Both the position numbers and the translations under genes were made by a program. The notes below the pieces were generated by a model. That model saw only the letters and a program-made list of their open reading frames with translations, was not told the origin of the DNA and did no database searches. Positions 2,217 through 23,891 of a stretch of DNA of 64,000 nucleotides are shown piece after piece (positions within the stretch are counted from its first letter, which is position 1; each line of letters starts with the position of its first letter). The stretch lies in sequence record MH494197.1. The stretch is one strand, 5' to 3'. Origin of the DNA: Escherichia phage CMSTMSU.

Positions 2217-2254
2217 GTATTCTCCTAAATGAGTAGTCACTCTAATTAATAAAC

Positions 2255-2282
2255 ATTATATCACATTCTTTGCGTTTGTCAA
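2255..2282 (-). promoter_or_regulatory. sigma70-like promoter TTGACA-N16-TGATATAAT upstream of clpA-like gene
   Basis: Reverse complement reads TTGACA aacgcaaagaatgtga TATAAT with TG extended -10, about 40 nt upstream of the ATG at 2216. Confidence 0.45.
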
Positions 2283-2286
2283 CAAG

Positions 2287-2302
2287 GTAAATAAAGATAT
2301 AC
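2287..2302 (+). promoter_or_regulatory. late-promoter-like motif GTAAATAAAGATATAC
   Basis: Resembles the CTAAATA..GTATA motif found upstream of the fibre and tube genes; lies about 25 nt upstream of the ATG at 2326. Confidence 0.3.
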
Positions 2303-2325
2303 CCGATTTATTTTGGAGACAAACA

Positions 2326-5132: not shown

Positions 5133-5161
5133 CTTTCACTGACAAATAAGGAGGTGTTGTT

Positions 5162-5623: not shown

Positions 5624-5625
5624 TA

Positions 5626-5655
5626 AAAAGGAGCCAATGGCTCCTTTTTCTTTAT
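5626..5655. terminator. bidirectional intrinsic terminator hairpin between convergent genes
   Basis: aaaaaGGAGCCaatGGCTCCtttttc: GC stem flanked by A-run and T-run. Confidence 0.5.
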
Positions 5656-6327
5656 ACCCCAATTAGTGGGATACCTGTTATGTTAAGTAGAACAGATGCT
5701 TGAAGCTTAACTGACTCACCTGCCGAAAGGTTGTTTACTATACCATCGACGCGGAACCCTAAGTTTTTATTAGAGTTGAGAGAGTTAATCACCCAGTTTT
5801 CGTAATCCGCTTTTGTAATACCATTCGGATTTGGGAGAGTTGGATCAACATCATTAATTACCATAGAAACATCCCAATTCGGGCGACTACTTGTAATTAC
5901 ATCCTTGATTGATTCTAGTTGTGTAATGCGACGTGGATCTGGAATCTGACTTGCACCAATTGAACCGAAAAATGTACCTTGGTTATCAACATAGAACTGA
6001 CCTTTAATGAAAAATGTTTTGAATTATACGGAAGAGAAACAATTTCACCTGATGAATCACTAACTTCACGAATCATAATTTTCAATTCATAAAAATAGTT
6101 ACTACCAAATTCAAACACACCAGTACCATTTGTGAATGTTGTCCAGTTATTTGAATCAACCTGTGAAGTACCACCCATATTGAAGTACGCTAATGGCTTA
6201 GTACTGTTACTTTGTGTAAATTCAATATATTTCTTACCTGTATCATAGTTGATATCAAGTAGTGTTGAGTACTCTTTATTTTCTGGACGAGATGTTTGAA
6301 TTTCACGCCATTCTTTATTTTTCATTA
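5652..6327 (-). CDS. hypothetical tail/fibre-associated protein (two ORF pieces)
   Basis: ORFs 5915-6325 and 5652-5864 in the same orientation; start ATG overlaps the upstream stop (TAATG). Confidence 0.35.
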
Positions 6328-6746
6328 GGACACGAAGGAATCACCATTACTGGTAAGAACCATACGACCCATAATACTATTTTCACCATCTGGTACTGTG
6401 TTGAAAATTGAAATCATTGGGATAGATGCCCAGTCAGCTTCAGATGCAGTATCTACTGGCTGACGAGCATTATCAACTAATGCAAGAAGTAGTTCGCCAG
6501 TGTTGCCAGTATTTCTGTACCAAATCTGACCATTAACGTTACCACGAGGTGCAGTAGCTCCACTGAAGTTCTCAACCAAGTGGAGGAAGTTTTCGTTCCA
6601 TGCTTGACCGTAACCAACTTTATTTCGACCTGCAAAGTTTAACGGTACTGGGTTACTACCGTTGGTTTGGTCCTAATATTACGTTATTTGGAATGGTAGC
6701 ATAAACGCTACCATTACTTCTATAAATTGTATAACTTACACTCATA
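6325..6746 (-). CDS. hypothetical fibre-like structural protein, about 140 aa, frame broken near N-terminus
   Basis: ATG at 6746 then MSVSYTIYRSNGSVYATIP..., continuing after a frameshift into ORF 6325-6579 (NVNGQIWYRNTGNTGELLLAL). Confidence 0.35.
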
Positions 6747-6951
6747 TCATCACCTTATTATTGTAGTTGGACACGAACTGTGTATTTGATTTGCAAAACA
6801 CGGTTAGCACTTTTCTCAACTGGGTGAAAAATAATATGGGTAAGTGGAATACCGCTATCACCATTTGTATATAAACCCAATTCGTCAAATACATATGTCC
6901 CATCCATGCTAGTACCAGAGCTAACACCTTGGTCAGATGGCTCACCTAAAC

Positions 6952-7364
6952 CTAATGTGCAAATACAGACGATATCAGTGTAAGCTTGGCACGGAATGTG
7001 AACAGTTGTAATGTTGTTATATTGTGAATCAATACCAGCAGAGATACGTGGGTTGATTTTTTCAGATAAGTCTGAGAATATAGACCACCGAAAGAAGTAA
7101 CGCGTGGTTTCTTGTATGTGATACGACCAGTACTCAAAACTACTGTTCCACCATTACCAAAACGCATCTCACTAATAGATCCAATAGGAATACCAGTACT
7201 ATCTTGATTATAAGCCAACGCATTAGCAATAGCAGTACTCATATTTTCAGGGTGAATTGCGTTTGATTTATCCAAAACGATTTTTGGTTAGATGGATCAG
7301 TAACGTCAGTAATTAGTACATGACCCTTAACAAATAGTTTTGGTTGTTCTGTTTCTAATTTCAT
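6952..7364 (-). CDS. hypothetical structural protein (fragmented; 3' end uncertain)
   Basis: ORF 6952-7275 plus an upstream in-phase segment starting at ATG 7364 (MKLETEQPKLFVKGHV...). Confidence 0.3.
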
Positions 7365-7408
7365 TTCTAATCCTTAGTAGTTAATTAAAATTTGTTCTAA
7401 CTTACCAG

Positions 7409-7870
7409 CTAAACTTTTTGTACATCAGATGGATACTTGCTAATGTAATCACGGTCAATACCGACTTTCAGATAGGTAAAGTTTCCGGTTAAGGTTTCAG
7501 CGAATGTACCAGTTGTACCTTGTTCTCTAATAAGGTCACCGCCATTTGGGTTAAGAATGACATTATCAGTAAATTCAAGATAGAAGTTGCAGCTTTCGGT
7601 AAATTTAATTGGGAACCAATCATCGTCAGATGGATTACTTGCCAGTGTAGCGAGTACGTAAATTCTACCAATGAAGTTACGTAGGGTAAAGGATATTGTA
7701 TGTAATCCTGTAGTACTACCATAATAGCCGCCACTAGCTAATGGTAATGTTTGTTCGTTCCAATGATAATCTAAGTTAGCAGGATACCAGCTATCTGATT
7801 CAGGAAATTCTTGCCATGAACCATCTTTAGTTTTTCTTTTGAAGAGGAAGTCTTTTGATCTTAATGCCAT
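7409..7870 (-). CDS. hypothetical structural protein, 153 aa
   Basis: ORF with RBS-like AAAAGGG upstream; divergent from the 7980 gene. Confidence 0.4.
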   Translation of the reverse strand: MALRSKDFLFKRKTKDGSWQEFPESDSWYPANLDYHWNEQTLPLASGGYYGSTTGLHTISFTLRNFIGRIYVLATLASNPSDDDWFPIKFTESCNFYLEFTDNVILNPNGGDLIREQGTTGTFAETLTGNFTYLKVGIDRDYISKYPSDVQKV

Positions 7871-7935
7871 TGTTAAGCCCTTTTAGTAGTGAACTTTCAT
7901 TTATTTATTAATGGCAACGAAATGTATTTTGTACT

Positions 7936-7955
7936 GATAAATATTGGTATATGAC
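7936..7955 (+). promoter_or_regulatory. late-promoter-like motif TGATAAATATTGGTATATGA
   Basis: Shares the (C/G)TAAATA..GTATAT core with the fibre-gene upstream motifs; 25-45 nt upstream of ATG 7980. Confidence 0.3.
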
Positions 7956-7979
7956 ATTAACTCATACAAGGGAAATATT

Positions 7980-9105
7980 ATGACAATTTCATTCAACAAT
8001 GGGTCAGGTGGTTCATGTAATAATTCTGGCATCAAAAGTTTAGTTATTAACGCTGCTGGACATTTAATTGTAACCTATTCCGACAATACAATCCAAGACC
8101 TAGGTCTAGTGGTTGGACAAAATGGTGCTAACGGTAGAAACTTTTATCCAAATGAGATAGGTTTTGAAGTTCCTAATGAACTCTTCCGTGTTGGTGAAGA
8201 ACTAGGGTGGTGTTATCTTAGTCTTGCAAACGGCACTAGTACTTTATATTTTAAATCAAACGATGCCCAAGAAACAATTAGTACTTGGAACCGTGTAGAG
8301 TTTGGTAAAGGTGATACTGGTGAAGCTGGTAAACCATTCCACATTGACAGTTCTGGTACGGCGTTTCCAACAACTGGTCTTTTCGATAATTACACATTCT
8401 ATAATACTGAAGATGGTAAATTATATTTCTATCAAAGCGTAACTGCAACATGGAGTGATGGTATTCCTTTCCGTGGTGAACAAGGTCTACGTGGTCGTTT
8501 CCATATTGATAGTACTGGTAGTCAATTCCCAAGCATTGATAATCTACCACAAGATTATTGCTTCTATAACACGACAGATGGTAATTTGTATTATGTCGAT
8601 ATCGTAACTACATCATCAACCCCAACTAAAGAGTGGAGTGCTGGTATCTTATTCCGTGGAAAAGACGGTGAAGAAGGTAAGCAAGGTGAACAAGGTATTC
8701 AGGGTGAACGGTAAAGATACAGTTGTTATCATCAACACTATTGATCATTCATGGACTAACGCATTGTTAGTTATTGGTACATGCCCTGCTGGATACCTAG
8801 TAACTAATATCGAAGTTGATATTAACCAAGCATATGATGAACCAGTAAATGAAATGTTTGTACGTTTCGGTGGTGAAGCACAAGAAGATATTGGTGGTAC
8901 TGTAATTGCACCTGTTGATTATTTCGATATCAACCGCAAAATGCGTTACATTGTTAACGAAACCAACCACGAAGTATCAAGTAAAGATGAAATCATTTCT
9001 TGTGTATTCAATGATTCCGTAAACAACAGTTCATTTGGTGAAATGAAGATCGTTTGTACTTTATCATGGCAAGCACCTATTCAGCCTATTCAAGATAACA
9101 TTTAA
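7980..9105 (+). CDS. fibre protein with collagen-like Gly-X-Y stretch and internal ~50-aa tandem repeat (one frameshift near 8700)
   Basis: GKDGEEGKQGEQGIQGER Gly-X-Y run; repeated block HIDSSGTAFPTTGLFDNYTFYNTEDGKLYFY / HIDSTGSQFPSIDNLPQDYCFYNTTDGNLYYV; ORFs 7944-8714 and 8638-9105 overlap in different frames. Confidence 0.55.
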
Positions 9106-9118
9106 AGAGGGTTGATAA

Positions 9119-9150
9119 ATGGCAGTTTTTCCAATTTAGAAGGGACCATG
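9119..9150 (+). other. conserved leader cassette copy 1: 6-codon uORF MAVFPI with stop 8 nt before main start
   Basis: ATGGCAGTTTTTCCAATTTAGAAGGGACCATG; 30 of 32 nt identical to 11263-11294. Confidence 0.5.
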
Positions 9151-11283
9151 ATGCCAACATTCAAGTTGGGTAAACGTGGTGCTTCTATTAATTTTGTAAA
9201 CGATTCTGTCGCAATCAAAGACTTTTAGGCGAAACGTTCCTACCTGTTAAGGTGGGAACTCCTAATGACGATGATTCCGCAGTAAACGTTAGGTATCTTG
9301 AAGATAACCCAAATGCTTTATTTGGCGTACTTCCACCAACAAATGACATTGGTAAAAATAACAACACTTATTTTCAAGTTGATTCTGAGGGTATTGTTGA
9401 TATCTTTGCAAAACAAATGATGTTTGGGTAAAATCATTATACATTAATAAAAATGTCCTTTCCAGTGTTAACGGTGCTGATTATATCGGACTTATTACTG
9501 GAGGAACACTTCAACAGGCACAGTTTTACATAACACCAGAAGAGTTTGGTGCAAAGGTGATGGCATCACTGATGACACGGCGGCGTTAACGCATGTGCAG
9601 TTTATGCTAAAGAACACAAAATCCAAATTCAAGCTGGTGGTAATTATCGTATCAGAACTGCTGTTTATTTGAATGATATTCAATGGTTTGGTGGTACAAT
9701 CACTGGTAACGGTGGCACAATGGTATCGGTACTGAATAGTACAATCCAACAAGCAACATTAACAGGATGTTATTTAAAATTCTTTGGTGGTAATGGTAAA
9801 TTTTATTTTAATAAATTTATTAATATTACAAGTACTGCTGCATTTCTAATGCAAGGTATGACTGAATCAGGTACTATCGACTTCTGCTTTAATGAAATGA
9901 CACAATGTAAGTACGGTGTTCTTCAGCAAGGCACTGGTGAAAAATGACAGTTGGGCGTTATTCATACAACCACATCCATGATATATATGGTGATGCAATT
10001 GAATTGAACGTAGTCAACTCACATTACCCAGACGGATTTGTAATAGAAGGCAACTTGATTGAAAACGTAGATGGTACAAATGCACCAATTCCTCTTTCAA
10101 ACTGGGGTATTGGTATCGGTGTTGCAGGTTCTGGTCCTTATGATGTGAATGCTGATGATTCACAATATGTAAAAAATTCGTTATAAAAATAACCGCTTGT
10201 ACAATGTCCGTCAATGTATTCACGTTGAGTTGGGTAAAGACTTTAAAATTCTCAATAATGAAGTTTATCCATCAACGTTGGTATCAATTGGTACTGGTTT
10301 GACAACCGCTGGTGTAATTACTTATGGTTCTGTTGATTTTATTATTGATGGCCTATCTGGGCATCTATTAAATGATCCATCAGTAACTAACCGTATGGTT
10401 TCTATTAACTGGGGCGTAACATCTGGTAAATTTGCTGGTCCTCCACGAAACTTTAAATTATGTAATCTCCACATTCCTGAGTCGTCTATTATTGTGTATA
10501 CTTCAGGCTCTGATAATTGGCTAAATACTACTGAACTTTCTAATATTACATGTAGTAGAATTCAATGGCGTGGATTGCCGTCATCTTCCAAGTTTAATAA
10601 TATCAGTACTAAAGAACTTGATGTTATTGGACAACACCTTGCAACTGAAGGTGAAGGAGGGGCTTATATACTCGCTCTAAATATACATATACCAACTGGA
10701 CTAATTGTGTTGTTCAAGATGATTGTAACATATCAAAATATAGTTTCTCAAGAATGTATGTTGACCGTATTGACCAATCATCTAATAACTTTAAAGTAAC
10801 CACTGCAATTGATGGAACGGGTCATCGTGGACCTGTAGTAATACCTGTAGTTGAACAGTATTACGTGCCTTATGATGTTTTTCCGGTGGGAGATATTTCC
10901 CAACAGGAACAATTATCCATAAACAATCAGGTGGAAAATTTATTGTTACAGTAGGTGGTTCTTTCTTTGGTCGATATGACACAATTAGACAAACAGTTGC
11001 AGGACAAACTTATATCGAAGCATTGGGTGTATCATGGGGTGATAATCAATATGCTAAAGCTGCTGGAACCGAAATCCTAATCACAGGAGCAGGGGAAAAT
11101 GGCGAAGATTTAAAACATATATCACTAGAGCAGTTTATGTTGTTAATAATGCGTATCGTATCGATATTGCCGATCCGATTGTTACTGCTACCGCAGCAGG
11201 GCATTATTGAAAGCTGCTCAACCAATAACATATATCACCCTATCTTAAAGGAGATTATAAAAATGGCAGTTTTTCTAATTTAG
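9148..11283 (+). CDS. tailspike-like receptor-binding protein with pectate-lyase-type beta-helix motif (heavily frame-broken; 3' end uncertain)
   Basis: Motif PEEFGAKGDGITDDTAAL at about 9535-9595; N-terminus MMPTFKLGKRGA paralogous to the 11292 gene; ORF pieces 9669-9947, 9944-10186, 10197-10799, 10754-10954, 11023-11283. Confidence 0.5.
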
Positions 11284-11294
11284 AAGGAACCATG
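11263..11294 (+). other. conserved leader cassette copy 2: 6-codon uORF MAVFLI
   Basis: ATGGCAGTTTTTCTAATTTAGAAGGAACCATG. Confidence 0.5.
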
Positions 11295-12157
11295 AAGAAG
11301 ACCTTCATACTTGGTAAAAATGGTGCACAAATTGCCACTAATGGTAATGTTGTTCAAATCCAGAACTACACGGGTACACAACTTCTTCCTGTTTCAGCAG
11401 GTGACCCAACCGCAAATACACACTTGGTTACATTGGGTTATTTGAATACACATAGCGGTGGTGGTGGCGGTTCCGGTATTTTACGTGGAACTATTGCACC
11501 ATCTGAATCAATCGGTGTAGATGGTGACGCTTACTTCTTAGTTGACAGTACTAATATTATTCAGATCTATATTAAAGACCTTGGTGTTTGGAAGCCTCTC
11601 CAAAGCACAACTCCGTACTGATAGTTCTTACGTTACTACTGAAATCGTTCCTGTATCGGCATTTACATTAGTTCACGGAACAACAGATCAATATACTTAT
11701 TCTTTACCTGAATCAGTACATGGTCGTGGTCCAGATATTATGGTTCAGCTACAGGGTGATCCCGGTAACATCCCACTTGACACTGTATTCCAAACTAACG
11801 TCACTGTGAGTGGTATTGGTGACATTACGATTGATGTTATTGGTCAAATTACTGAATACACAAGTGTCAAAGTCAACATCATAGGAGCAACAACAATGAC
11901 AGTACCTTATAGTAAATTAATTAATATAGCAGATTGGGTAGCATCTGGTGATGATTACACCATTACTGTTCCAGCGTCAGAACATAACCAAACACCTGAC
12001 AATTTGTATATTTCTATATATTCAAATAAAACACCGCAGTACAGCAGCATCACCATTTGAACTGGTAATAACCGAAACTCAAATTGATGCAAGTGGTAAT
12101 GTTACATTCACTTCTGATGAAGCGTTTAGTGGTAAAATAGTAATTTCCGGTAAATAA
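11292..12157 (+). CDS. fibre protein paralog with poly-Gly linker (frame-broken)
   Basis: N-terminus MKKTFILGKNGAQIA matches the 9148 gene N-terminus; HSGGGGGSG linker; ORFs 11292-11621, 11542-12060, 11948-12157. Confidence 0.45.
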
Positions 12158-12165
12158 AAAATAAT

Positions 12166-12198
12166 CCAGACTGCGTTCCATCGAGTCTGGATTTTTAT
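12166..12198 (+). terminator. intrinsic terminator
   Basis: CCAGACTgcgttccatcgAGTCTGG followed by ATTTTTAT. Confidence 0.6.
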
Positions 12199-12205
12199 AT
12201 TAATA

Positions 12206-12226
12206 ACTAAATATATGTATATTAAC
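12206..12226 (+). promoter_or_regulatory. late-promoter-like motif ACTAAATATATGTATATTAAC
   Basis: Near-identical motif at 17281-17300 upstream of the paralogous fibre gene; 46 nt upstream of ATG 12272. Confidence 0.4.
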
Positions 12227-12271
12227 AAGGTCAAATGTATTTTATGCTTTTGCCTATTTGGAGGGAACTAA

Positions 12272-15200
12272 ATGTACTCGATTAAAACAGATCTAGATAT
12301 AACTGGTGGTGCAACGGTTGGTAAAGATCTTCTTGTGAAAGGCGATGCAGTATTCAATAAAAATCTAACAGTTAATGGAACTGTAACTTTTGCTGACGCT
12401 GTATTCACTGCAATTGAAGCAGGAACTGTAGACATTTCATCTACACTAGATGTTGCTGGTAAAGCATCATTGAATGGTGGAATTGAAGTTCATGGTAATT
12501 CCGTAATTGGTAATTTGCCTGTTGGCTCTGATACTGCAACGATTAATTCTAATGCACAATTCCAAAGCCCAGTATCAATGGCAGGTAACCTAACACAAAC
12601 CGCTGGCACTGCTGTACTAAAAGATACCCAAGTGGCATCAATGGATGTTCTTGGAACTTCTTCATTTAAAGGTAATATTACTGCTGAAACTGGCACTACC
12701 GCAGCATTTGACAAAATAACTGCAACTGATGCAACATTCACAAACACTGCAACTACTGATATCACATCAACTGGAACTGCAAACTTTAAAGATGTGAATA
12801 TTTCCGGTACACTAGGTGGAACATTTAGTCTATCTGATGTTAATGCAACAACTCTAACTGTTTCTGGTTTAACCAGTCTACAAGGTGGTGTTACATTAGG
12901 TTCCAACATTACTGGTGTGAATAGTAGTGCAAACTTCCGTGATATTAAAATTGGTTCCAATGCTGCAAACACTAACTACCGTTTGAGCTTTAACTATTCT
13001 GCTCCAAGTCTTCGCCCAACTGTAATTCTACAGAACGAAATCCAATCAGAATTGATGTCTCCAGCTACCCTAAGTGTATTGAAAACTGCATCTTTTGGTG
13101 ATTCGTCATTATCCACTTTTGGTATTACTGGTAATGGTCTAAACAAACTAGATTACCTAACAGTATCTGGTAACTCTGTTCAAGATCCAGCAACTCCACT
13201 ATTACAAGTAACTTCAGGTAAAACTAAAGTTCATGATTTCGAAGTAACAGGAACTGCAACTATTCCTAACATTGAAAGTACTGGTACTGCTAATTTTAAT
13301 AACATCAACGTATCTGGTACACTCGGCGGTACTTTCAGTCTTGATGATATTGAAGCAAACACTCTAACTGTTTCTGGATTAACTAGCCTTGTTGGTGGTG
13401 TAACTTTAGGTGCTGATATTTCCGGTGCTAATAGTACTGCTAATTTTAAAGCAGTAAGTTTAGGACAAAACGCAGCCGATGCTAACGTTAAGTATGGTTT
13501 TGCTTATTCTGCCCGGTGCTCGTCCAACTGTAATTCTACAAAATGAAATTCAGTCTGAACTAGTATCTCCAGCAGTACTAAATGTACAAAAACTGCTACC
13601 TTTGGTGATGCATCTCTTGCAACCTATGGTATCACAGGTAACGGTCTAAACAAACTAGATTATCTATCTATTACTGGTAATGGTACACAAAGTCCAGCTA
13701 CCCCACAACTACAAGTAGCTGGTAAATCAGTACTAAATGATGTTGAATTCACTGGTACTGTAACTGGTCTAACTGTTGATGTGAGTGGACAAGATCTAAC
13801 TCCTAAATCAGTAGTTGCTGCTGAAGCAATCAAAGGTCAAACCCTTGAATCAGTTGGTCAAACCACCGTAGGAACTAACCTACAAGTTGGTGGAACTGCT
13901 AATGTTGTTGGTGCACTAACTGGTACTGCTGCTACCTTCACTGGTGATGTAAGTGCTGCTAAAGGTACTTTCAGTGGTGATGTTAGCGTTACTGGTCAAA
14001 CTGTAACTGTACGTGATTTAGTAGTAACTGGTACAACTACTGGTGTAACTGCCCAAGCTGATGTTGATGGTCTTGATATCGCCCCAAATAAAGTTGATGT
14101 TACAACAACACTATCTGTTGCTGGGGACACTACTTTAGCTGGCCTAACTGCTAGTTCAGTAACCAGTACTGGTGATGTTACTGGTGCGTCTGTATCTGGT
14201 AATACAGTAACTGCGGCTGGTGCACTATCTGGTGGTTCTCTTGCAGTAACTGGTGCTGGTTCTATGGCTTCACTAACTGTTCCAAGTATTACTGGTGACA
14301 CTACTTTTGCTAATAACGTAACTATTACTGGAACACTAACTCCGAGTAGTATAGATTTAAGCACTACTGATGTAAGTGCTGCTTCTTTAACAACTACTGG
14401 TAACGTAACTGTTGGTGGTTCTCTTGCAGTAACTGGTGCTATTGATTTGTCTGCTGCTGATGTAGTAACAAAATCAGTTAGTGCAACTAACCCAAGTACA
14501 TTTGGTGTAATTAATGCATCTTCTGTTGTCGCAACTGGTGACGTTTCAGGTGGCACTCTAACTACTACTGGTGCAGCGAAAGTAGGAACACTAACTAGTA
14601 CTGGTGTAGTATCTGGTTCGCGTTTGTCTTCTGGTACTGCAACAATCTCAACTTCTGTAACAGTTCCAACTTTACAAGCTGAAGCTGCTGGTGCTGGTAC
14701 ACTAAATCTAGCAAGTAATGTTGTCGCGGCAAAGATCTAACTGTCACTGGTGTATTCAAACCTGAAGGTGGTCTTGACCTAACAACTGTTGATATTACTG
14801 CAAACTCACTAACTACTACTGCTGATGTTAATGTTGGTGGAAACTTAGTAGTTGATGGTACTTTTGACCTAAGTGCTGCTGATGTGTCTGTGAAATCTCT
14901 TGCAAGTGCAGAGACAATTACAAGTGCTGGTGTTATTACCGTTACCGATTCAACCAATACTAGTTCGTTACCTAAAATTACTTCAACTGATGCAACACTC
15001 TTTACAGTAAATGCAGGTACTATTAATGCAACTGGCAACAGTGTACTACAAAGTGTATCAGCTACTCAAGTAACTGCAACTAGTGCTGAATTGACTGGTG
15101 TTGGTCTTGGTCTTCAAGTCGATAATGATGCAAACGTTGGTGGTGCATTATCTGTTGGTGGAATCGCAACTGTTGGTTCTTTAACAACAACTGCTGCTTC

Positions 15201-17201
15201 TCTTAATATTGCAAAAATACTGCAATCACTGGTGATTTAGCTGTATCTGGCACACTAACTGCTGGTTCAATCGACCTAAGCAATACTGATGTAACCGTTA
15301 AATCTCTTGATTCACTAGGTAACGCACACATTGCTGGTGACCTAACTGTAGATGGTGCATTCGACTTAAGTGCAACTAACCTTGTAGCTGCAAGTCTAGC
15401 AAGTACTGGTTCTACTACTGTTGGAACTGATCTAGTACTAACAACTGGTGTTGTGACTGGTAGCCCAGCTATCTCTGGTAATACAACAATCGGTGGAACT
15501 CTTGGTGTAACTGGTGCTGTTAACCTAACTGATATTGTTAATATCGGTAAGAAAGTAACAGTGAGTACTGGTGGTATTCAGGTAGTTGATGGTGGTATCA
15601 ATACTAACACAATTAACGTTTCTGGTGCTTCTACTCTAGCAGGAACTTCCATTACTGGAACTTTAGGTGTAACTGGTGCTTCTACTCTAGCAGGTGTATC
15701 TGCGACATCACTAACAGTTTCTGGTGACAGTACTGTTCAGAAACTAACTGTCCAAGGTGAATTGATCCCACAAGGTGGTCTTGACCTAAGCGGTGCAGAC
15801 ATTACTGCTAATAGTCTAACTACTGCAACAACTATCAATGCAACTGGCCTAAGTACTCTAAGTGGTGGTGTTAGTACTTCTACTGTGACTGCATCTGGTC
15901 TAGCAACTGTTGGAAGTTTAACTTCTACTGCAAACGCATCAGTTGGTGGCAATTTGGGTGTAACTGGAACTCTAGATGTTACTGGTGCTACTACTGTATC
16001 TTCACTAACAGCTACTGGTGCAGTGAAAACTGGCACAACCCTAACTGTTGGTACTCCAGTTGGTGAACAACCTGAAACTGTACAGATCATTCCAGATACT
16101 TATATTGCTGGTAAATTGCGTGTAATCGGCGGTATTAACGCTGAAATCGACGTAAGTGGTCAAACACTAGAACCATATGCAATTGAAGCTGCTGCAACAC
16201 TATCTGCTGTTGGTAACATTACTTCTGGTGCAACCATCGTTTCTAAAGCTGCAACAATTGGTGATGTTGGTTCACAAAACAACAACCTAACTGTTAATGG
16301 TAACGTAGTAACTAATGGTGACTTCACCGTTACTGGTGTACTAAATGCACAATTGAACCAAGCAGATTCCGATGTAGCTGTTAAATCTTTAACTGCAACT
16401 AATAACGTTGCGGCTGGTACTTCAATCACTGCTGGAACATCCATCACTGCATCAGGCTTACTAAAAGGTAATTCGTTAGAAGTCACCACTACTGGTTCAT
16501 TTGGTGGTGCAGTAACTATGTCAAGTGGTGCAAACATCACTGGTACTGTTGGTATCACTGCTGGTGACCTAACAGTAGGTGGTAATATCTCTGCAACTGG
16601 GACTGCTGGATTCGGTGCAACAACCGTTTCTACCATTACAACATCAGGTTTAGCTACACTTGCAAGTGCATCTGTAACTGGTGCTCTAACTGTAGGTGGT
16701 ACATTAACTGCAAATGGTAACACTGTGATTGGTGATGCTGCTGCTGATACTTTAACTGTAAATGCAACATCGACATTTAAAGAGAACGCAACATTTGATA
16801 AGAACCTAACAGTGACTGGTTCTATTAACACCACCACTGCAAACTTCACCACAAACAACATGGTAACTAAGAAATATTCTGTTATCCCTGCTAGTGTTAC
16901 TGCTTCTACTGCTGCTGTAGGTGGTACTTGGACACCAGATGGTACTACTAACGTATATCGCTTAACTCTTGACCAAAGTGTTACAATGGATTCCATCGCG
17001 GGTCTAATTGGTAGTGGTCAAGCATGTTCAGTGTATATCTATGTAACTCCATCTGTTGCTGATACTACTTTCACCTTCGGTGGTGCATACTCTGTAGTTT
17101 CTGGTACAGTAAGTGCTGTAGTTGGTCAAACAAGTATTATCCAAGTAATCTATGATGGTTTCAGTACTGTGTTTGATACCTTCGTTGCACAACGTGTATA
17201 A
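12272..17201 (+). CDS. giant tail fibre protein 1 (about 1640 aa; Thr/Gly/Ser/Val-rich repeats; several frameshifts)
   Basis: Same-strand ORFs 12272-13546, 13781-14740, 14884-15240, 15453-17201 with in-phase unlisted segments between; repeated LTVSG/VTGT motifs; C-terminal tip ...VYIYVTPSVADTTF...VIYDGFSTVFDTFVAQRV; RBS GGAGGGA. Confidence 0.7.
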
Positions 17202-17220
17202 CATTTTAAATTAATAATTA

Positions 17221-17250
17221 AAGCCAACTAAAATAGTTGGCTTTTTCTTT
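17221..17250 (+). terminator. intrinsic terminator
   Basis: AAGCCAACTaaaatAGTTGGCTTTTTCTTT. Confidence 0.55.
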
Positions 17251-17280
17251 GTATTAGATAATAGTGTTTTGTGAATTAAA

Positions 17281-17300
17281 CTAAATATAAGTATATTAAC
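17281..17300 (+). promoter_or_regulatory. late-promoter-like motif CTAAATATAAGTATATTAAC
   Basis: Matches 12206-12226. Confidence 0.4.
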
Positions 17301-17347
17301 AAAAGATGGGTTATGAATATATAGTTCATCGTTATAGGAGGGACTCT

Positions 17348-20300
17348 ATGTACTCGATTAAAACGGATCTTGATGTATCTGGTAATTCCACGGTAGGTAA
17401 GGATCTTTTGGTCAAAGGTAATGCAGTATTCAGTAATGACCTAACGGTTAATGGGGAAGTGTCTTTTGCTAACGCAGTATTCACTGCAATTACCGCTGGT
17501 TCTGTGAATGTCACAGGTGCATTGGATGTTGCTGGTAAGGCAACCTTATCCGGTGGTGCTGATGTTTCAGGTGCTGCGACATTTGCAGGAAACATTACTG
17601 CTGCTGACGGCACAACTGCAAAATTTGATAACTTAGAAGCTAATTCAGGATCATTTAATTCTGTTGAATCAACTGATATTACTTCAACTGGCACAGCAAC
17701 TTTTAAAGATGTAAACATTTCTGGTACACTTGGTGGTACTTTTAATCTTTCTGATATTAATGCTACAACACTTAATGTGTCTGGTGCTTCAGCACTAACT
17801 GGTTCAGTCACATTGGGTGCAAATATCACTGGTCTTGCAAGTACTGCAAACTTCCGTGATATTCGTATCGGGCCTAATGAAGAAGGTCAAGCATATAGAC
17901 TAAACTTTGGTTACACCGTTCGGACAACGACCAACCGTTCTTCTACAGAACGAAGTTCAATCCGAACTAATGTCTCCTGCTAAGTTGAATGTTCTACAAA
18001 CTGCAACATTTGGTGATTCTTCACTTTCAACTTACGGTATTACAGGTAATGGTTTAAACAAATTAGATTATGTAACTATTTCTGGTAACGCAATTCAATC
18101 ACCAACCACTCCTTTACTTGAAGTAACTAAAGGTAAAACTAAAGTTGTTGATTTAGAAGTGACTGGCGTAGCAACTATTCCTAATATCGAAAGTTCTGGT
18201 ACTGCAAACTTTAACAACATCAACGTATCTGGTACTATTGGTGGTAGTTTTGATTTAGATGATATCCAAGCAACAACATTATCAGTATCCGGTGCTTCAG
18301 CACTAACTGGTGCAGTTACATTGGGTGCAAACATCACTGGTCTAGCAAGTACTGCAACATTCAAAGCAATCAATTTGGGTCAAAATACCGCTGATGCTAA
18401 CGTTAAGCTAGGTTTTGCATATACTGCACCTAGTGCACGTCCAACAGTCTTGTTAGCAAACGAAGTTCAATCTGAACTAATGTCTCCTGCTAAGTTGAAC
18501 GTTCTACAAACTGCAACCTTCGGTTCTGCTGCACTATCTACCTATGGTATTACTGGTAATGGTCTAAACAAATTAGATTATCTAACAATTACTGGTAACG
18601 CAACACAAAACCCTGCTACTCCACAACTTCAAGTTGGTGGTAAAGCAATTCTTAATGATGTTGAATTTACAGGTACTGTAACTGGCCTAACTGTTGATGT
18701 GAGTGGACAAGATCTAACTCCTAAATCAGTAGTTGCTGCTGAAGCAATCAAAGGTCAAACTCTTGAATCAGTTGGTCAAACAACTGTAGGTTCATCTCTA
18801 CAAGTTGGTGGTACTGCAACTGTTACTGGTGCATTATCTGCTGCCGCTGGTACTTTCAGTGGTGATGTTAGTGGTTCTAAAGGTATCTTCAGTGATAGCG
18901 TATCCGGTACAAGTGCAACCTTTACTGGGGATGTTAGCGGTGATAACGCAACCTTTAGTGGCGATTTATCTGCTGTAGCTGGCACTTTCAGTGGTGATGT
19001 AACCGTAACTGGTCAAACAATCACTGTTAAAGACTTGGTAGTAACTGGAACTTCAACTGGTGTAACTGCAATCGCTGACGTTGACGGTCTTGATATTGCT
19101 CCAAACAAAGTTGATGTTACAACAACTCTATCTGTTGCTGGTGAATCAACTCTTGCTGGTGTTACAGCAACTTCAATCAATAGTACTGGTGCAATTGCAG
19201 GTACTGCAATTTCTGGCTCTACTATTACAGCAACTGGTGAAATTTCTGGTGCATCATCTGTAGTAACTGGTCTTTCTAAATCTGGTAGCGTTGAAACTGG
19301 TGCTCTAAAGGCATCTTCTGTTGAAACTGCAATCATTAGCAACACTGCTGGTGTGTCAATAACAAACAACACTTCAATTGCAGGTAATCTATCTGTAACT
19401 GGAACTGTTACCCCGTGCAATTGACCTAAGTACTACTGATATTGATGCTAAGTCTCTAACAACTACTGAAGGTGCTAACATTGGTGGTGACCTAGTTGTT
19501 GCAGGTACAGTTGATCTAAGTGCTGCTGACGTTGCTGTTAAATCTCTAACCAGTACTGGTGCAGTTATTAGTTCTGAAGGTACAGTAAGTAGTGTTCTAC
19601 CTAAACTTTCCAGTACTGAAGCTAATATTACCACAGTAACTGCAACCACTGCAAATGCTACCACACTAAATGTAACTGGTACATCAACTCTAGCTGGTGT
19701 TAACGCTTCTGGTGCTATTACTTCTGCAACTAACATTACCGCTACTGGTGTATTAAAGGTGCATCTGTTGAAACTGCGTCAATCAGCAATGCTGATGGTG
19801 TAGCAATTAACAATAACACTACAATCACTGGTAATTTGGACGTATCTGGGACATTGACCCGTGCAATTGACCTAAGTACTACTGATATTAGTTCTAAGTC
19901 TCTAACCACAACTGAAGGTGCTACAATTGGTGGCGATCTTGTGGTAGCAGGTACTGTTGATCTAAGTGCTGCTGATGTGTCGGTGAAATCTCTTGCAAGT
20001 GCAGAGACAATTACAAGTGCTGGTGTTATTACAGTTTCGGATACAGTGAATTCTAGCACTCTACCAAAACTAATTACTACTGATGCAACTATTGGTGCTG
20101 TCCATGCAGCTACTATTGAAACAACTGGTTCAAGTACACTAAAACAAGTATCTGCTACTGAAGTAACAGCTACAAGTATTGTACTAAATTCAGTTGGTGA
20201 AGGTTTACGTGTTGACAATAATGCAAACATTAATGGTATATTAAGTGTTAATAATATTACTTCTACCAATGATACTATTGCAATTGCGAAAAGTGCTGCT

Positions 20301-23050
20301 ATTACTGGTGATCTGACCGTATCTGGAACTGTTACCCCGGTGCAATTGACCTAAGTACTACCGATATTAGTTCTAAATCCTAAGTACTACTGAAGGTGCT
20401 ACAATTGGTGGTGACCTAGTTGTTAATGGTTCAATTGATTTAAGTTCTTCCAATGTTTCAGCAATTACCCTTGCTAGTTCTGGTAATACTACCGTTGGTG
20501 GTAACCTAGTACTAACAACTGGTGTTGTGACTGGCAGCCCATCTGTATCTGGTAACCTTTCAGTTGCAGGTACTGCGGCAGTAACTGGTGCAACTACCTA
20601 ACTGATATCGTAAATATCGGTAAGAAAGTAACTGTAAGCACTGGTGGTATTCAAGTAGTTGCAGGTGGTATTAATACCGACGCTATATTAGTATCCGGTG
20701 ATACAACTTTAAACAACACTACTGTAAACACTACCTTAAATGTAACTGGTCAAAGTACAGTTGCTGCACTAAGTGCTGCATCTTTGAATGTATCTGGTGA
20801 TAGTACTGTTCAAAACTAACAGTTGAAGGTGAATTGGTTCCACAAGGTGGTATCGACCTAACTGGTGCAGATATTTCTGCTAATAGTCTTGCAACTGCTT
20901 CAACAATCACTGCAACTGGACTAAGCACACTAAGTGGTGGTGTAAGTACTACTAATGTTACTGCATCTGGTACAGTGAATGCTGGTAGTTTGGATGTTAC
21001 TAACAACGCAACCGTTGGTGGTAATTTGGGTGTAACTGGTTCATTAACTTCTGGACCATTGAGTGTAACAGGCATTGCGAATATTACTGGTGTAACAACT
21101 GTTGGTTCATTGGTTTCCGGTGCTGTATCTGGTAGTACTGGTACATTTAGTTCAACATTAGGTGTAACTGGTGCAGCTACATTTGACAATGACGTAACTG
21201 TTGAAGGTGTATTCACCCCAGCAGGTGGTTTAGACCTAACAACTTCTGATATTACAGCTAAGAGTTTGTCAGTATCTGAAACTATTCACTCTGATGGTGC
21301 AGCTTCCTTTGGTGGTAACACAACAGTAGGTGGTACATTGGGTGTAACTGGTGCAGTAACTGCTCCATCGGCAACCCTAAGCGGTACTGGTACTGCACTA
21401 GCAGTAACTAATAATGCAACTATTGGTGGTACATTGGGTGTAACTGGTCAAGCAACACTTGGTTCTATAGTAACTTCTGGTGTATCTGCAACAAGTGGCT
21501 CTTTCAGTACTACTCTTGGCGTTACTGGTGCTGCGACATTTGGAAACGATGTAACTGTAGTTGGAACACTAACTCCGGTAGCTTAGATCTAACTGGTGCA
21601 GATATCTCTGCTAAAACACTAACTCTATCTGAAACATTAAATGCGACAGGTAATACTACCCTTGGTGGAACATTAGGTGTAACTGGTTTAGCAACAATTG
21701 GTGGAACACTAACGTCTGGTGCAGTAACTGCTCCATCTGCAACCTTGAATGGTTCAGGAACTGGTCTAGCAGTAACTAACAACGCAACCGTTGGTGGTAC
21801 ATTAGGTGTAGTTGGTCAAACAACACTAGGTTCTGTTAAAACTGGTGCAACTCTAACAGTTGGTACACCATTAGGTGAGCAGCCTGAAACTGTACAGATT
21901 ATGCCAGACACTTATATTGCTGGTAAACTACGTGTTGAGGGTGGTATTAACGCAGATATCGATGTTGGTGGACAAACACTAGAACCGTTTGCAGTAATAG
22001 CATCTGATTCTTTATCTTCTGCTGGTAATATTACTGCTGGTGCGGCAATTATTTCAAGTTCTGCAACAATTGGTGAAGTCGGTTCACAAAACAACAACCT
22101 AATCGTTAATGGTAACGTTGTAAACAACGGTAACTTCACTGTTACTGGTGTACTAAATGCACAATTGAACCAAGCAGATTCCGATGTAGCTGTTAAGTCT
22201 TTGACTGCAACTAACAACGTAGCTGCTGGAACCACATTAAGTGCAGGTACTGCAATTACTGCTGGTACTTCCATCACTGCAACTGGATTACTTAAAGGTA
22301 ATACTTTATTACTACTACTGGTTCATTTGGTGGTGCAGTAACTATGTCAAGTGGTGCAAACATCACTGGTACAGTGGGTATTACTGCTGGTAACCTAACA
22401 GTGGGTGGTGATATCTCTGCAACTGGCACTGCTGGATTCGGTGCAACAACCGTTTCTACAATTACAACATCAGGTTTGGCTACACTTGCAAGTACATCCG
22501 TTACTGGTAACGCAACAGTAGGTGGAACACTAGCAGTAACAGGAGCACTAACTGCGAATGGTAACGTAACATTAGGTGACGCAGCGGCTGACGTTCTAAC
22601 CGTTAATGCAACTTCATCATTTAAAGAAAATGCTGTGTTTGATAAGGCAGTAACAGTAACTGGTGAACTAACCACTACTAATGCTAACTTAACTACTACA
22701 ACAGTAACTACCAAAAGTATGATGTAATCCCAACTCAAGTTACATCATCAGTAATTGCTCCAACCGGAACATGGACTCCAGATGGTACAAGTAACGTGTA
22801 CTTCATCACTCTAGACCAAGATACCACGTTGGCTCCAATTACTGGCCTAATTGGTGGCGGTAAAGCTGCATCAGTATACATCTATGTTAAACAAGATACA
22901 ACTGGTAACAGAAACTTTACAACTGATGGTACTTATGCTGTTGTTGATGGTGAACTAAACAAAACTGCTGGTAGCGTGACCATTTACCAAGTAATTTATG
23001 ATGGTGTAAGTCCAGTTACTGATTTGTTCATTGCACAACGTACTGCTTAA
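17348..23050 (+). CDS. giant tail fibre protein 2 (paralog of fibre 1; about 1900 aa; several frameshifts)
   Basis: N-terminus MYSIKTDLDVSGNSTVGKDLLVKG matches fibre 1 MYSIKTDLDITGGATVGKDLLVKG; long near-identical nucleotide blocks shared with fibre 1; divergent but homologous C-terminal tip ending VIYDGVSPVTDLFIAQRTA. Confidence 0.7.
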
Positions 23051-23114: not shown

Positions 23115-23891
23115 ATGTTTACATATGTAAAAGGTAGTTCTAAAGAAAATTATGAATTGGGTAACATCATCTCCAACCCAGTTGGTGTTAAGGGTTTAAA
23201 AGAACGCCGGGCAACTCCAGATGATGAACAAACATATCGTTATTTGTACAGTGATATTCGTGCACTTTATGGTATTTCAAGTAAAGATGGTTCTGAAATT
23301 GAACCTAATAACGCTGTTCGCAAAGAAGAGGGTTTCTGGTGGTTGGAATATAAGAATGTTGGTAATGTGAACGCAATTAATGAGAATTTGGAATATATTA
23401 AACTACAAGATAGTAATCAACCAGTCATCACATTCTTAGAAGAAGCAGAAGGTGAATATAAAGAGTTAACAGTACTGAAAACTTATAATTATGTTGATAT
23501 GGACATTGCAGCAGTTAAATCTGATCTGAAAGCACGCACAGTATCATCTCGTAGTGATCGTATTAATGCTGGTTATATGTTTAACGGTCATCGTTATAGT
23601 ACTGATCTAGCTGGTCGTCAAATGCTTCTTAATTATTATACACAAGTAACTTCCGGTTCAGATAGCGTTTCGATTTTCCTTGATGACGCAATTGTAAAAC
23701 TATCTGCTGCTGAAATGACTCAACTATACACTGAAGCATTTGCTATGGTTGAATCCCTATTTGCAGAGTGTAATAAGCAATGTGCTGACATTGATGCAGT
23801 TCCTGATGCTGATGAAGATGCAATTTATAAAGCACAACAGGCGGCTGTATGGGTATATGAAGGTATTGATATTCCTGAGCGTACTCGTTAA
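23115..23891 (+). CDS. hypothetical protein, 258 aa, immediately downstream of fibre 2 (possible fibre assembly/accessory protein)
   Basis: Intact ORF with RBS GAGG; position only; no motif recognised. Confidence 0.5.
   Translation: MFTYVKGSSKENYELGNIISNPVGVKGLKERRATPDDEQTYRYLYSDIRALYGISSKDGSEIEPNNAVRKEEGFWWLEYKNVGNVNAINENLEYIKLQDSNQPVITFLEEAEGEYKELTVLKTYNYVDMDIAAVKSDLKARTVSSRSDRINAGYMFNGHRYSTDLAGRQMLLNYYTQVTSGSDSVSIFLDDAIVKLSAAEMTQLYTEAFAMVESLFAECNKQCADIDAVPDADEDAIYKAQQAAVWVYEGIDIPERTR

What the first reader, a model, noticed from the sequence alone, without database searches (positions are those of the whole stretch)
12272..23050. Two tandem giant mosaic tail-fibre paralogs with exchanged modules and divergent tips
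The two ~5-kb genes share start, RBS and upstream motif, and contain long near-identical nucleotide blocks (for example 13781-13870 vs 18705-18790, 14862-14950 vs 19955-20040, 16280-16680 vs 22090-22500) separated by divergent blocks. Their C-terminal ~120 residues are homologous but clearly different. This pattern suggests recent duplication with ongoing module exchange and two receptor specificities.
Basis: seen in the sequence. Interest (0 to 1): 0.62.

Follow-up and report, generated by a model that had tools for sequence, protein, structure and literature searches.

The report
Tandem giant fibre genes, jumbo coliphage
The window carries two already-annotated, side-by-side giant fibre genes of a 121Q-like jumbo E. 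coli phage; they come from an old duplication kept partly alike by later gene conversion, and in this copy both are broken only by nanopore-type sequencing errors.

Summary
The two paralogous fibre genes are real and lie exactly at 12272-17201 and 17348-23050. Neither gene is an open reading frame in this window, however. Gene 1 is cut by 4 deletions and gene 2 by 11.

These breaks are sequencing errors. All 63 indels against the 99%-identical phage fEgEco12 are deletions in the window, at homopolymers or CCWGG (Dcm) sites. The 64-kb window has no CCWGG at all, and the sheath and tube genes are broken too.

In at least 10 public Asteriusvirus genomes the pair is intact (1644 and 1906 aa in fEgEco12) and annotated as tail fibre.

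The duplication is old, not recent (overall dS 0.75). Tip type 1 is shared with the distant Turkey5 clade, and tip type 2 is the conserved ancestral tip of single-gene phages such as 121Q.

Exchange between the copies is supported. Three low-dS blocks group the paralogs of one genome together, and phage TH47 carries a gene1-shaft/gene2-tip hybrid whose crossover lies in one of those blocks.

Two receptor specificities remain untested. The feature is ordinary and already known.

The parts
12166..12196 (+). Hairpin CCAGACT...AGTCTGG followed by a T run. It looks like the terminator of the upstream structural-protein gene.
   Evidence: Read. It is conserved in fEgEco12 and 121Q.
12207..12228 (+). 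Copy 1 of the shared 22-nt upstream motif CTAAATATATGTATATTAACAA. It is a putative fibre-gene promoter element (inferred).
   Evidence: only 2 matches in 64 kb, against 0.01 expected. A related sequence lies upstream of 121Q gene 571.
12260..12265 (+). Ribosome-binding site GGAGGG of gene 1.
12272..17201 (+). Fibre gene 1, the orthologue of fEgEco12 g317 (4935 nt, 1644 aa when intact). In the window it is broken by 4 deletions, located after 13514 (2 nt, CCWGG), 13587, 14730 and 15212 (each 1 nt, A runs).
12467..12625 (+). Segment of about 53 aa near the N-terminus that is present in gene 1 and in 121Q gp571 but absent from gene 2.
   Evidence: Alignment gap. The 121Q gene is collinear with gene 1 here.
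12770..13765 (+). Internal tandem duplication of a module of about 170 aa in gene 1 (12770-13261 vs 13280-13765; 69% nt, 58% aa).
13620..13890 (+). Block A, a low-dS (0.25) tract shared with gene 2 at about 18540-18810. Local identity reaches 98%.
14837..14970 (+). Block B, a low-dS (0.27) tract shared with gene 2 at about 19930-20065.
16212..16690 (+). Block C, a low-dS (0.19-0.33) tract shared with gene 2 at about 22024-22515. It contains an 18-nt hexapeptide repeat (16413-16450) and the TH47 crossover (about 16330-16420).
16869..17198 (+). C-terminal tip domain, type 1: an all-beta domain of about 105 aa.
   Evidence: AF2 gives pLDDT of about 85-92 for this part. The identical tip occurs in 8 phages, and a 70%-identical tip in Turkey5 and JNE01.
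17220..17250 (+). Intrinsic-terminator-like hairpin (11 bp) plus T run between the two genes.
17281..17302 (+). Copy 2 of the shared 22-nt upstream motif.
17336..17342 (+). Ribosome-binding site of gene 2. It reads AGGAGGG here because one G of the run is lost in the window.
17348..23050 (+). Fibre gene 2, the orthologue of fEgEco12 g316 (5721 nt, 1906 aa when intact). In the window it is broken by 11 deletions totalling 18 nt, located after 17921, 19414, 19754, 19860, 20338, 20378, 20596, 20811, 21576, 22308 and 22712.
17688..18634 (+). Internal duplication of the same ~170-aa module in gene 2 (74% nt, 63% aa).
19296..20460 (+). Three copies of a module of about 150 aa in gene 2 (79-83% nt).
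21034..21800 (+). Segment of about 255 aa specific to gene 2, itself built of repeats of about 120 aa.
22715..23047 (+). C-terminal tip domain, type 2. It is 94-100% aa identical to the tip of the single fibre gene of 121Q, JP4, TH47 and vB_Ec-M-J.
23115..23891 (+). Downstream virion protein of 258 aa with a DUF4376 domain. Its position directly after the giant fibre gene is conserved across genera, and there is only one copy for the two fibre genes.
   Evidence: Pfam PF14301 at E 2.8e-9. Synteny is shown. The CBB orthologue CBB_225 was found in virions.

Best explanation
The window is a stretch of an Asteriusvirus-type (121Q/PBECO4-like) jumbo E. coli myophage. Positions 12272-23050 hold two adjacent paralogous genes for giant fibre proteins. 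Each gene has its own copy of a shared upstream motif and a ribosome-binding site, and a terminator lies between them.

Shown:
- In nature both genes are intact (1644 and 1906 aa) and under purifying selection.
- Both share a conserved 65-aa N-terminal segment.
- Both have a long Thr/Gly/Ser/Val-rich shaft built of repeated 120-170-aa modules whose copy number varies between phages.
- Both end in a ~105-aa all-beta C-terminal domain.

History, inferred from incongruent similarities:
- A single ancestral gene, still single in 121Q, phAPEC6 and JP4, was duplicated in tandem together with its promoter region. This happened before the fEgEco12-like and Turkey5-like lineages split.
- The downstream copy kept the ancestral tip. 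The upstream copy acquired a divergent tip.
- Later, homologous recombination between the copies homogenised three blocks (gene conversion). In TH47 it fused the two genes into one hybrid.

The many frameshifts in this window are not biological. They are uncorrected nanopore-type deletions at homopolymers and Dcm-methylated CCWGG sites.

Function, inferred:
- Both proteins form trimeric fibres of roughly 105-125 nm.
- Both dock to the same virion site through the shared N-terminus.
- They present two different distal domains, so the virion carries two fibre types.
- Whether the two tips bind different host receptors is not shown.
For: Identity and annotation:
- The region is 99% identical to fEgEco12, WPEC5 and EC.P1, where two intact CDSs are annotated as tail fibre.
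- Both proteins hit PHROG 4549.
- phAPEC6 gp256 and CBB_226 were detected in virions by mass spectrometry.
- A phiTE tail-fibre chain (PDB 9CUY_g) matches at E 1e-28 to 3e-31.

Sequencing errors:
- 63 of 63 indels are deletions in the window: 41 in homopolymers and 15 at CCWGG.
- All 18 CCWGG sites of the fEgEco12 stretch are corrupted. The window has 0 CCWGG against 47 expected from composition, while GATC is untouched.
- The sheath, tube and other genes are also frameshifted.

Selection: dN/dS between fEgEco12 and Ecwhy_1 is 0.11 for gene 1 and 0.17 for gene 2.

Age of the duplication:
- Overall dS between the copies is 0.75.
- Tip 1 groups with the Turkey5 gene 1 tip. Tip 2 groups with the 121Q tip at 94% aa and 80% nt.
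- The locus holds a single gene in 121Q, JP4 and phAPEC6, between the same neighbours.

Exchange between the copies:
- Blocks with dS 0.2.
- Block C is 91.8% identical between the paralogs but only 69% identical to the Turkey5 orthologue.
- The TH47 crossover is 100% gene 1 on one side and 100% gene 2 on the other.
- The middle of gene 2 is replaced in vB_Ec-M-J.
- Repeat number differs in JP4.

Anchor and tip:
- The N-terminal anchor is conserved across genera, with one copy per genome except in the two-gene clades.
- The tip model is confident, and tip differences lie more in loops (55%) than in strands (34%), p = 0.03.
Against: - No read data are available, so the claim of sequencing error rests on error signatures and on comparison with relatives.
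- TH47 is an UNVERIFIED, unannotated record, so its hybrid gene could be an assembly collapse at the 95-98% identical block.
- Single-copy ancestry is inferred from outgroup synteny only. The 121Q architecture (gene 1-type N-terminus with gene 2-type tip) would equally fit a TH47-like deletion from a two-gene ancestor.
- Trimer formation, fibre length, docking site and any receptor binding are inferences. The shaft-module model failed (pLDDT 39.5).
Confidence: 0.8

Rival explanations
1. The frameshifts are real, so the two genes are decaying pseudogenes, or are expressed through programmed or phase-variable frameshifting at homopolymers.
For: In the window gene 1 has 4 frame breaks and gene 2 has 11. 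Many sit in A/T runs, which can act as slippery or phase-variable tracts.
Against: - The same kind of deletion hits intergenic DNA and essential genes: sheath in 5 frame pieces, tube in 4.
- Every indel is a deletion.
- Every CCWGG site is corrupted, and none is left in 64 kb.
- Ten relatives up to 99% identical have intact ORFs with dN/dS 0.11-0.17.
Confidence: 0.03
2. The tandem pair is an assembly artefact, either an expanded repeat or two alleles from a mixed population joined head to tail.
For: The window comes from an error-prone long-read assembly. One relative, TH47, shows a single gene at the locus.
Against: - The same two-gene arrangement, with a unique 146-nt spacer carrying its own terminator and promoter motif, is present in at least 10 independently sequenced phages from Finland, Poland, the Czech Republic, China and elsewhere.
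- The copies are only 72-77% identical, too different to arise by repeat expansion in an assembler.
Confidence: 0.02
3. The giant proteins are not baseplate long tail fibres. They are the ~120-nm 'hairs' or whiskers seen on the sheath and capsid of 121Q, phAPEC6, fEgEco12 and CBB. The two paralogs would then give two kinds of hair.
For: - CBB hairs measure 119 +/- 10 nm and end in tiny globules, while baseplate fibres are only 28.6 nm. The hair gene product is unassigned.
- 121Q has long fibres around the capsid and sheath. phAPEC6 and fEgEco12 are hairy with six short baseplate fibres.
- Scaling from the phiTE long tail fibre (512 A; taken here to be the 793-aa homologous chain, which the paper did not confirm) gives about 100 nm for CBB_226 and 106 and 123 nm for genes 1 and 2.
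- The N-terminus is unrelated to the baseplate-binding N-terminus of phiTE; the match to phiTE starts at residue 213 of that chain.
Against: - The only solved homologue is a baseplate-attached fibre.
- The gene sits in a baseplate and tailspike gene neighbourhood.
- GAP32 has the homologue but has not been reported as hairy.
- The length estimate is a crude scaling, and the identity of phiTE chain g as the long tail fibre was not confirmed.
Confidence: 0.2
4. The C-terminal domain is a docking module for another virion protein, most plausibly the DUF4376 protein encoded just downstream, rather than the receptor-binding site. On this reading the divergent tip 1 reflects a changed or lost partner, not a second receptor.
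For: - Tip 2 is 94-100% aa identical across Asteriusvirus although synonymous sites are near saturation (80% nt or less).
- The domain and the DUF4376 gene are syntenic in phages of Escherichia, Salmonella, Erwinia, Pectobacterium, Yersinia and Cronobacter.
- CBB_225 is an abundant virion protein.
Against: - The domain sits at the extreme C-terminus in nearly all of 886 representative proteins, the usual place for a receptor-binding tip.
- No interaction was tested.
Confidence: 0.3

Closest known systems
Asteriusvirus giant fibre protein: 121Q gp571, phAPEC6 gp256, fEgEco12 g316 and g317, BF17 ORF310 and ORF311 (annotated 'long tail fiber proximal subunit')
   Same: - Same locus, between the 299-aa structural-protein gene and the DUF4376 gene.
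- Same N-terminal 65 aa (82% identical to 121Q).
- Same repeat modules and the same C-terminal domain.
- 99% nt identity to fEgEco12, WPEC5 and EC.P1.
- The BF17 paper already mentions the two long fibre ORFs.
   Different: - 121Q, phAPEC6 and JP4 have one gene where this lineage has two.
- The copy in this window is frameshifted by sequencing errors.
- I did not find the age of the duplication, the conversion tracts or the TH47 hybrid described in the papers I read.
Tail fibre of Pectobacterium phage phiTE (PDB 9CUY/9MJN chain g, 793 aa; probably its long tail fibre)
   Same: Significant sequence similarity (E 1e-28 to 3e-31) covers one ~170-aa module, part of the shaft and the C-terminal domain. 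The phiTE fibre is described as a trimeric, highly extended beta-helical fibre.
   Different: - phiTE's N-terminal baseplate-binding bundle (residues 14-171, the only part modelled) has no counterpart here.
- The proteins here are 2-2.4 times longer.
- phiTE is a 140-150-kb Certrevirus, not a jumbo phage.
T4 gp34, long tail fibre proximal subunit (the source of the GenBank product name)
   Different: There is no detectable sequence or Pfam relationship, and no gp35/36/37-type partners next to it. The product name is a historical label, not a tested homology.
Modular exchange and duplication of phage receptor-binding genes, for example the T-even gp37/gp38 mosaics and the paired lateral fibres LtfA/LtfB of T5-like phages (from general knowledge, not tested here)
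   Same: Conserved anchor, variable shaft and tip; conserved blocks serving as recombination points; tandem paralogs with different tips.
   Different: Here the tip is the most conserved part in one copy. The proteins are unusually long, and specificity has not been measured.

Membership tests
Asteriusvirus/CBB-GAP32-type giant fibre protein (PHROG 4549) | Significant match to the family profile | tested here: met
   phrog_4549 'tail fiber protein' at E 1.4e-182 (gene 1) and 4.2e-203 (gene 2), using the intact fEgEco12 orthologues.
Asteriusvirus/CBB-GAP32-type giant fibre protein (PHROG 4549) | Conserved N-terminal ~65-aa segment (MYSIKTDLD...) | tested here: met
   It is 82% identical to 121Q and 58-69% identical in Erwinia, Yersinia, Salmonella, Pectobacterium and Xanthomonas jumbo phages. 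Both window genes start with it.
Asteriusvirus/CBB-GAP32-type giant fibre protein (PHROG 4549) | C-terminal ~105-aa all-beta domain (W-T-P-D ... D-x-F-x-x-Q-R; precomputed as PF26209 on database homologues) | tested here: met
   Alignments A2 and A3 have 14-17 invariant columns. Homologues carry PF26209. That model is absent from the local Pfam copy, so it was not scored directly.
Asteriusvirus/CBB-GAP32-type giant fibre protein (PHROG 4549) | Synteny: preceded by tailspike and structural genes, followed by a DUF4376 virion protein | tested here: met
Asteriusvirus/CBB-GAP32-type giant fibre protein (PHROG 4549) | Incorporation into the virion | not testable with these tools
   Shown only for orthologues: phAPEC6 gp256 (15 peptides) and CBB_226 (10 peptides) by mass spectrometry.
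Intact protein-coding gene in this window | Uninterrupted reading frame from start to stop | tested here: not met
   Gene 1 has 4 frame breaks and gene 2 has 11. They are attributed to sequencing error.
T4 gp34-type long tail fibre proximal subunit | Sequence or profile similarity to gp34, with gp35/36/37-type partners nearby | tested here: not met
Recent tandem duplication | Near-identical copies with low synonymous divergence throughout | tested here: not met
   Overall dS is 0.75, above 1 over much of the length, and aa identity is 54%. The two tip types are shared with a clade whose orthologues have dS of about 0.9.
Gene conversion between paralogs (concerted evolution) | Tracts where paralogs of one genome are closer to each other than to their orthologues, flanked by regions that group by orthology | tested here: met
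   Blocks A, B and C are 86-92% identical between the paralogs, against 69-84% to Turkey5 gene 1 and 76-78% to 121Q. The tip and N-terminus group by orthology. dS is 0.2 inside the blocks and above 1 outside. No formal GENECONV or GARD test was run.

The most novel reading that the evidence does not exclude
The giant fibre proteins may be the gene products, still unassigned in the papers I read, of the ~120-nm hairs that decorate the sheath and capsid of 121Q-, phAPEC6- and CBB-type jumbo phages. On this reading the C-terminal beta domain, possibly capped by the DUF4376 protein, is the small terminal globule seen by EM. The fEgEco12-type lineage would then carry two kinds of hair with different tips, kept partly alike by gene conversion.
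Probability: 0.2. Interest if true: 0.55.

Novelty: already known. Interest (0 to 1): 0.22.

Why it matters
For phage biology this is a routine case. Fibre genes duplicate, gain and lose repeat modules, and recombine at conserved blocks. This pair is already deposited and annotated in about ten genomes.

Three points are still useful:
- The window is an unpolished long-read assembly. Any gene-level reading of it, such as pseudogenes, recoding or small ORFs, will be misled by deletions at homopolymers and Dcm sites.
- The conserved blocks, especially 16212-16690 and 22024-22515, are natural splice points for engineering shaft and tip swaps in these therapeutic-candidate jumbo phages. TH47 looks like a natural example.
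- The mismatch between a fibre predicted to be longer than 100 nm and the 29-nm baseplate fibres seen by EM makes the identity of the 'hairs' a testable question.

Tried and rejected
- Stop-codon reassignment as the cause of the broken ORFs. Rejected: the breaks are frame changes caused by 1-4-nt deletions, not in-frame stops.
- Pfam on the full proteins, the tips and the N-terminus. Nothing was significant, only sub-threshold Bactofilin-like beta-helix noise.
- Word-indexed homologue searches gave very few hits: 1, 6 and 1. The multiple alignments for structure prediction were therefore shallow.
- AF2 of the 170-aa shaft module failed (mean pLDDT 39.5) and was not used.
- blastp self-comparison reported only the identity hit. 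It was replaced by a diagonal BLOSUM scan.
- I tried to confirm from the phiTE paper that chain g is the long tail fibre. It could not be confirmed from the main text.
- No tRNA genes are present in the window. Short tandem repeats in the genes are limited to 15-18-nt units.

Full report
**What the window is.**
Megablast of 12272-23050 finds seven complete jumbo coliphage genomes that cover the whole query at 96.8-99.1% identity. They are WPEC5, fEgEco12, EC.P1, Ecwhy_1, WPEC3, BF17 and Turkey3. More distant matches (about 74%) are to 121Q, PBECO4-like phages and others. Several of these records are classified in the genus Asteriusvirus. In fEgEco12 and Ecwhy_1 the region holds two adjacent intact CDSs, both annotated 'long tail fiber proximal subunit'. 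In fEgEco12 they are 4935 nt (1644 aa) and 5721 nt (1906 aa).

**Checking the observation.**
In the window itself, however, neither gene is open. The longest ORFs are 424, 319, 118 and 582 aa in gene 1, and gene 2 falls into about nine pieces. The pieces lie in different frames.

Alignment of 22.8 kb of the window to fEgEco12 shows 143 substitutions and 63 internal indels. Every indel is a deletion in the window:
- 41 lie in homopolymers of three or more bases;
- 15 lie at CCWGG;
- 7 lie elsewhere.

All 18 CCWGG sites of the fEgEco12 stretch are corrupted in the window, 15 by deletion and 3 by substitution. The whole 64-kb window contains no CCWGG, against about 47 expected from base composition. 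GATC sites are unaffected (42 vs 40). The tail sheath gene is split into 5 frame pieces, a tail tube gene into 4, and other genes similarly.

This is the known error signature of uncorrected nanopore data from Dcm-methylated DNA (my knowledge of the platform). I conclude that the frameshifts are sequencing artefacts: 4 deletions totalling 5 nt in gene 1, and 11 deletions totalling 18 nt in gene 2. They are not pseudogenisation or recoding.

The similarity claims hold:
- The genes are collinear paralogs with HSPs of 76% over 1232 nt, 72% over 1208 nt and 77% over 1069 nt.
- They are 54% identical in protein.
- The three quoted blocks are 81/84, 80/86 and 355/413 identical.
- Identity in 90-nt windows runs from about 40% to 98%.
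- Both genes start ATGTACTCGATTAAAAC behind GGAGGG.
- A 22-nt motif (CTAAATATANGTATATTAACAA) occurs only at 12207 and 17281 in the 64 kb, against 0.01 expected by chance.
- A terminator-like hairpin at 17220-17244 separates the genes.
- The last 148 residues are 58% identical.

**Anatomy.**
Each protein has four parts.
- An N-terminal segment of about 65 aa. It is 82% identical to 121Q and 58-69% identical in jumbo phages of Erwinia, Serratia, Yersinia, Salmonella, Klebsiella, Pectobacterium, Cronobacter and Xanthomonas. It occurs once per genome, except in the two-gene phages and in Xanthomonas phage XaC1.
- Two copies of a ~170-aa module (58-63% aa identity between copies).
- A long Thr/Gly/Ser/Val-rich shaft with further repeats of 120-166 aa. 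Gene 2 has three ~150-aa units and an extra ~255-aa repeat-built segment.
- A C-terminal domain of about 105 aa.

Pfam finds nothing significant. PHROGs places both proteins in phrog_4549, 'tail fiber protein'.

The only solved relative by sequence is a 793-aa tail-fibre chain of Pectobacterium phage phiTE (9CUY_g, E 1e-28 to 3e-31). It matches one 170-aa module, part of the shaft and the C-terminal domain. The phiTE paper describes its long tail fibre as a trimer of 512 A with a highly extended beta-helix, of which only the N-terminal baseplate-binding part was modelled. I could not confirm from the text that chain g is that fibre.

AF2 on a shallow alignment gives a confident all-beta model of the tip, with pLDDT 85-92 for residues 50-146 and nine strands. 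Its structural matches are weak:
- Foldseek finds nothing below E 0.13.

A profile of the tip domain finds 886 representative proteins at E <= 1e-3. The domain is almost always at the extreme C-terminus, in proteins of 116 to 2303 aa. The shaft-module model failed (pLDDT 39.5).

**Context.**
Upstream lie a 375-aa tail protein, a 713-aa colanic-acid-degrading tailspike-like protein and a 299-aa structural protein. Downstream lie a 258-aa virion protein with DUF4376 (E 2.8e-9) and a 654-aa structural protein. The pairing of giant fibre gene with a following DUF4376 gene is conserved in CBB, Erwinia, Salmonella, Yersinia and EJP2 phages, and a gene follows similarly in Certrevirus CR8. The two fibre genes here share one DUF4376 gene. 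Orthologues phAPEC6 gp256, CBB_226 and CBB_225 were detected in virions by mass spectrometry.

**History of the pair.**
121Q, phAPEC6 and JP4 have a single gene (1841, 1841 and 2129 aa) between the same neighbours. Two genes occur in eight fEgEco12-like phages. They also occur in Turkey5 and JNE01, whose upstream gene has a tip 70% identical to tip 1.

Tip 2 is 94-100% identical in protein to the tip of 121Q, JP4, TH47 and vB_Ec-M-J. It is only about 80% identical to the 121Q tip in DNA, which indicates strong purifying selection. It also resembles the cross-genus consensus more than tip 1 does.

Between close orthologues both genes are under purifying selection, with dN/dS 0.11 and 0.17. Gene 1, gene 2, the Turkey5 genes and 121Q are all separated by dS of about 0.9-1.0. 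Gene 1 and gene 2 within fEgEco12 show dS 0.75.

Sliding-window dS is about 0.2 in three blocks and above 1 over much of the rest. The blocks are gene 1 residues about 481-540, 860-900 and 1333-1466. In those blocks gene 1 is closer to gene 2 of the same genome (86-92%) than to Turkey5 gene 1 (69-84%) or to 121Q (76-78%). At the N-terminus, a middle segment and the tip, it is closer to Turkey5 gene 1.

That incongruence is the signature of an old duplication followed by gene conversion between the tandem copies. The duplication is therefore not recent. Whether the single-gene state is ancestral cannot be settled here:
- Outgroups favour it: there is one gene in CBB, Erwinia, Salmonella and other jumbo phages.
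- Against it, 121Q has a gene 1-type N-terminal architecture and a gene 2-type tip. That pattern would also result from a deletion between paralogs.

**Direct examples of exchange.**
- TH47 has one 1652-aa gene. It is 93-100% identical (60-nt windows) to fEgEco12 gene 1 up to about window 16330-16420, and essentially identical (95-100% per window, 100% beyond block C) to gene 2 from about window 22260 onward. The switch lies inside block C, next to an 18-nt repeat. The record is UNVERIFIED, so an assembly collapse cannot be excluded.
- vB_Ec-M-J shares gene 1 and the first ~1.4 kb of gene 2 at 95.5% identity. Its gene 2 middle is only 67% identical and its 3' part 83%.
- JP4 differs from 121Q by extra repeat units, 288 aa in all.

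**How it most likely works.**
Shown: there are two separately promoted genes, and orthologous evidence indicates that the family's protein is in the virion. Both keep the same conserved N-terminal segment and end in homologous but distinct domains. The differences between the tips are concentrated in two loops; 55% of loop positions differ against 34% of strand positions (p = 0.03).

Inferred: both proteins trimerise, attach through the shared N-terminus to the same kind of site, and display two different distal domains.

Whether these domains bind two host receptors is open. The cross-genus conservation of the domain, its synteny with a DUF4376 virion protein, and the weak fold hits to fibre-junction domains make a protein-docking role a serious alternative.

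A further alternative concerns where the fibres sit. Scaling from phiTE gives fibres of about 106 and 123 nm. The baseplate fibres seen on these phages are short (28.6 nm in CBB). The unassigned hairs on sheath and capsid are 119 nm, with small terminal globules. A 2026 review that I read still does not name a hair gene product.

**Novelty and verdict.**
The genes are already in public records and are annotated. The BF17 paper mentions the two long fibre ORFs. Duplication, repeat turnover and recombination of fibre genes are standard phage biology.

The finding is real but ordinary. Its 'recent duplication' reading is wrong, and its 'two specificities' reading is untested. The most practical result is that this window is an unpolished long-read assembly whose frameshifts are artefacts.

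Noticed in passing
window 1-64000: The whole window has no CCWGG site, against about 47 expected and 18 in the matching 22.8 kb of fEgEco12. It carries about 2.8 single-to-few-base deletions per kb at homopolymers and Dcm sites, while GATC sites are intact. This is the signature of an unpolished nanopore assembly of DNA grown on a dcm+ host, so every ORF call in the window is unreliable.
   Followed up: yes
window 40037-42665 (-), 37008-38087 (-), 33377-34875 (-), 47348-48455 (-): The tail sheath, a tail tube paralog, a 503-aa structural protein and a tRNA nucleotidyltransferase are each split into 4-5 frame pieces by the same errors. Three adjacent tail-tube-like genes are annotated in fEgEco12 (g297-g299).
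   Followed up: partly
window 23115-23891 (+): A 258-aa DUF4376 virion protein is encoded directly after fibre gene 2. The same pairing follows the giant fibre gene in phages of several genera. Gene 1 has no such partner of its own.
   Followed up: partly
L005 (TH47, MT446416) 9001-13959: A single hybrid fibre gene (gene 1 shaft plus gene 2 tip) in an UNVERIFIED, unannotated record. It is either a natural deletion by recombination between the paralogs or an assembly collapse.
   Followed up: partly
L004 (vB_Ec-M-J) 5001-9921 and 1826-3968: In this relative gene 1 is annotated as two CDSs (1049 aa plus a 582-aa remainder), and the colanidase tailspike is also split in two. This probably reflects frameshift errors in that record too.
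   Followed up: no
window ~9100-11250 (+), equivalent to L001 2826-4967: A 713-aa colanic-acid-degrading tailspike-like protein (phrog_6117; weak pectate-lyase and endosialidase N-terminal hits) lies two genes upstream of the fibres. In JP4 the corresponding CDS is only 606 nt.
   Followed up: no
column places_in_record: The 10.8-kb query matches 3-5 places per genome in the closest relatives. This suggests that further genes elsewhere in these genomes, outside this window, share fibre modules.
   Followed up: no
window 16413-16450 and 22242-22281: An 18-nt (hexapeptide AGTSIT-like) tandem repeat lies inside conserved block C, with 2 copies in gene 1 and 3 in gene 2. It sits right at the TH47 crossover.
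   Followed up: partly
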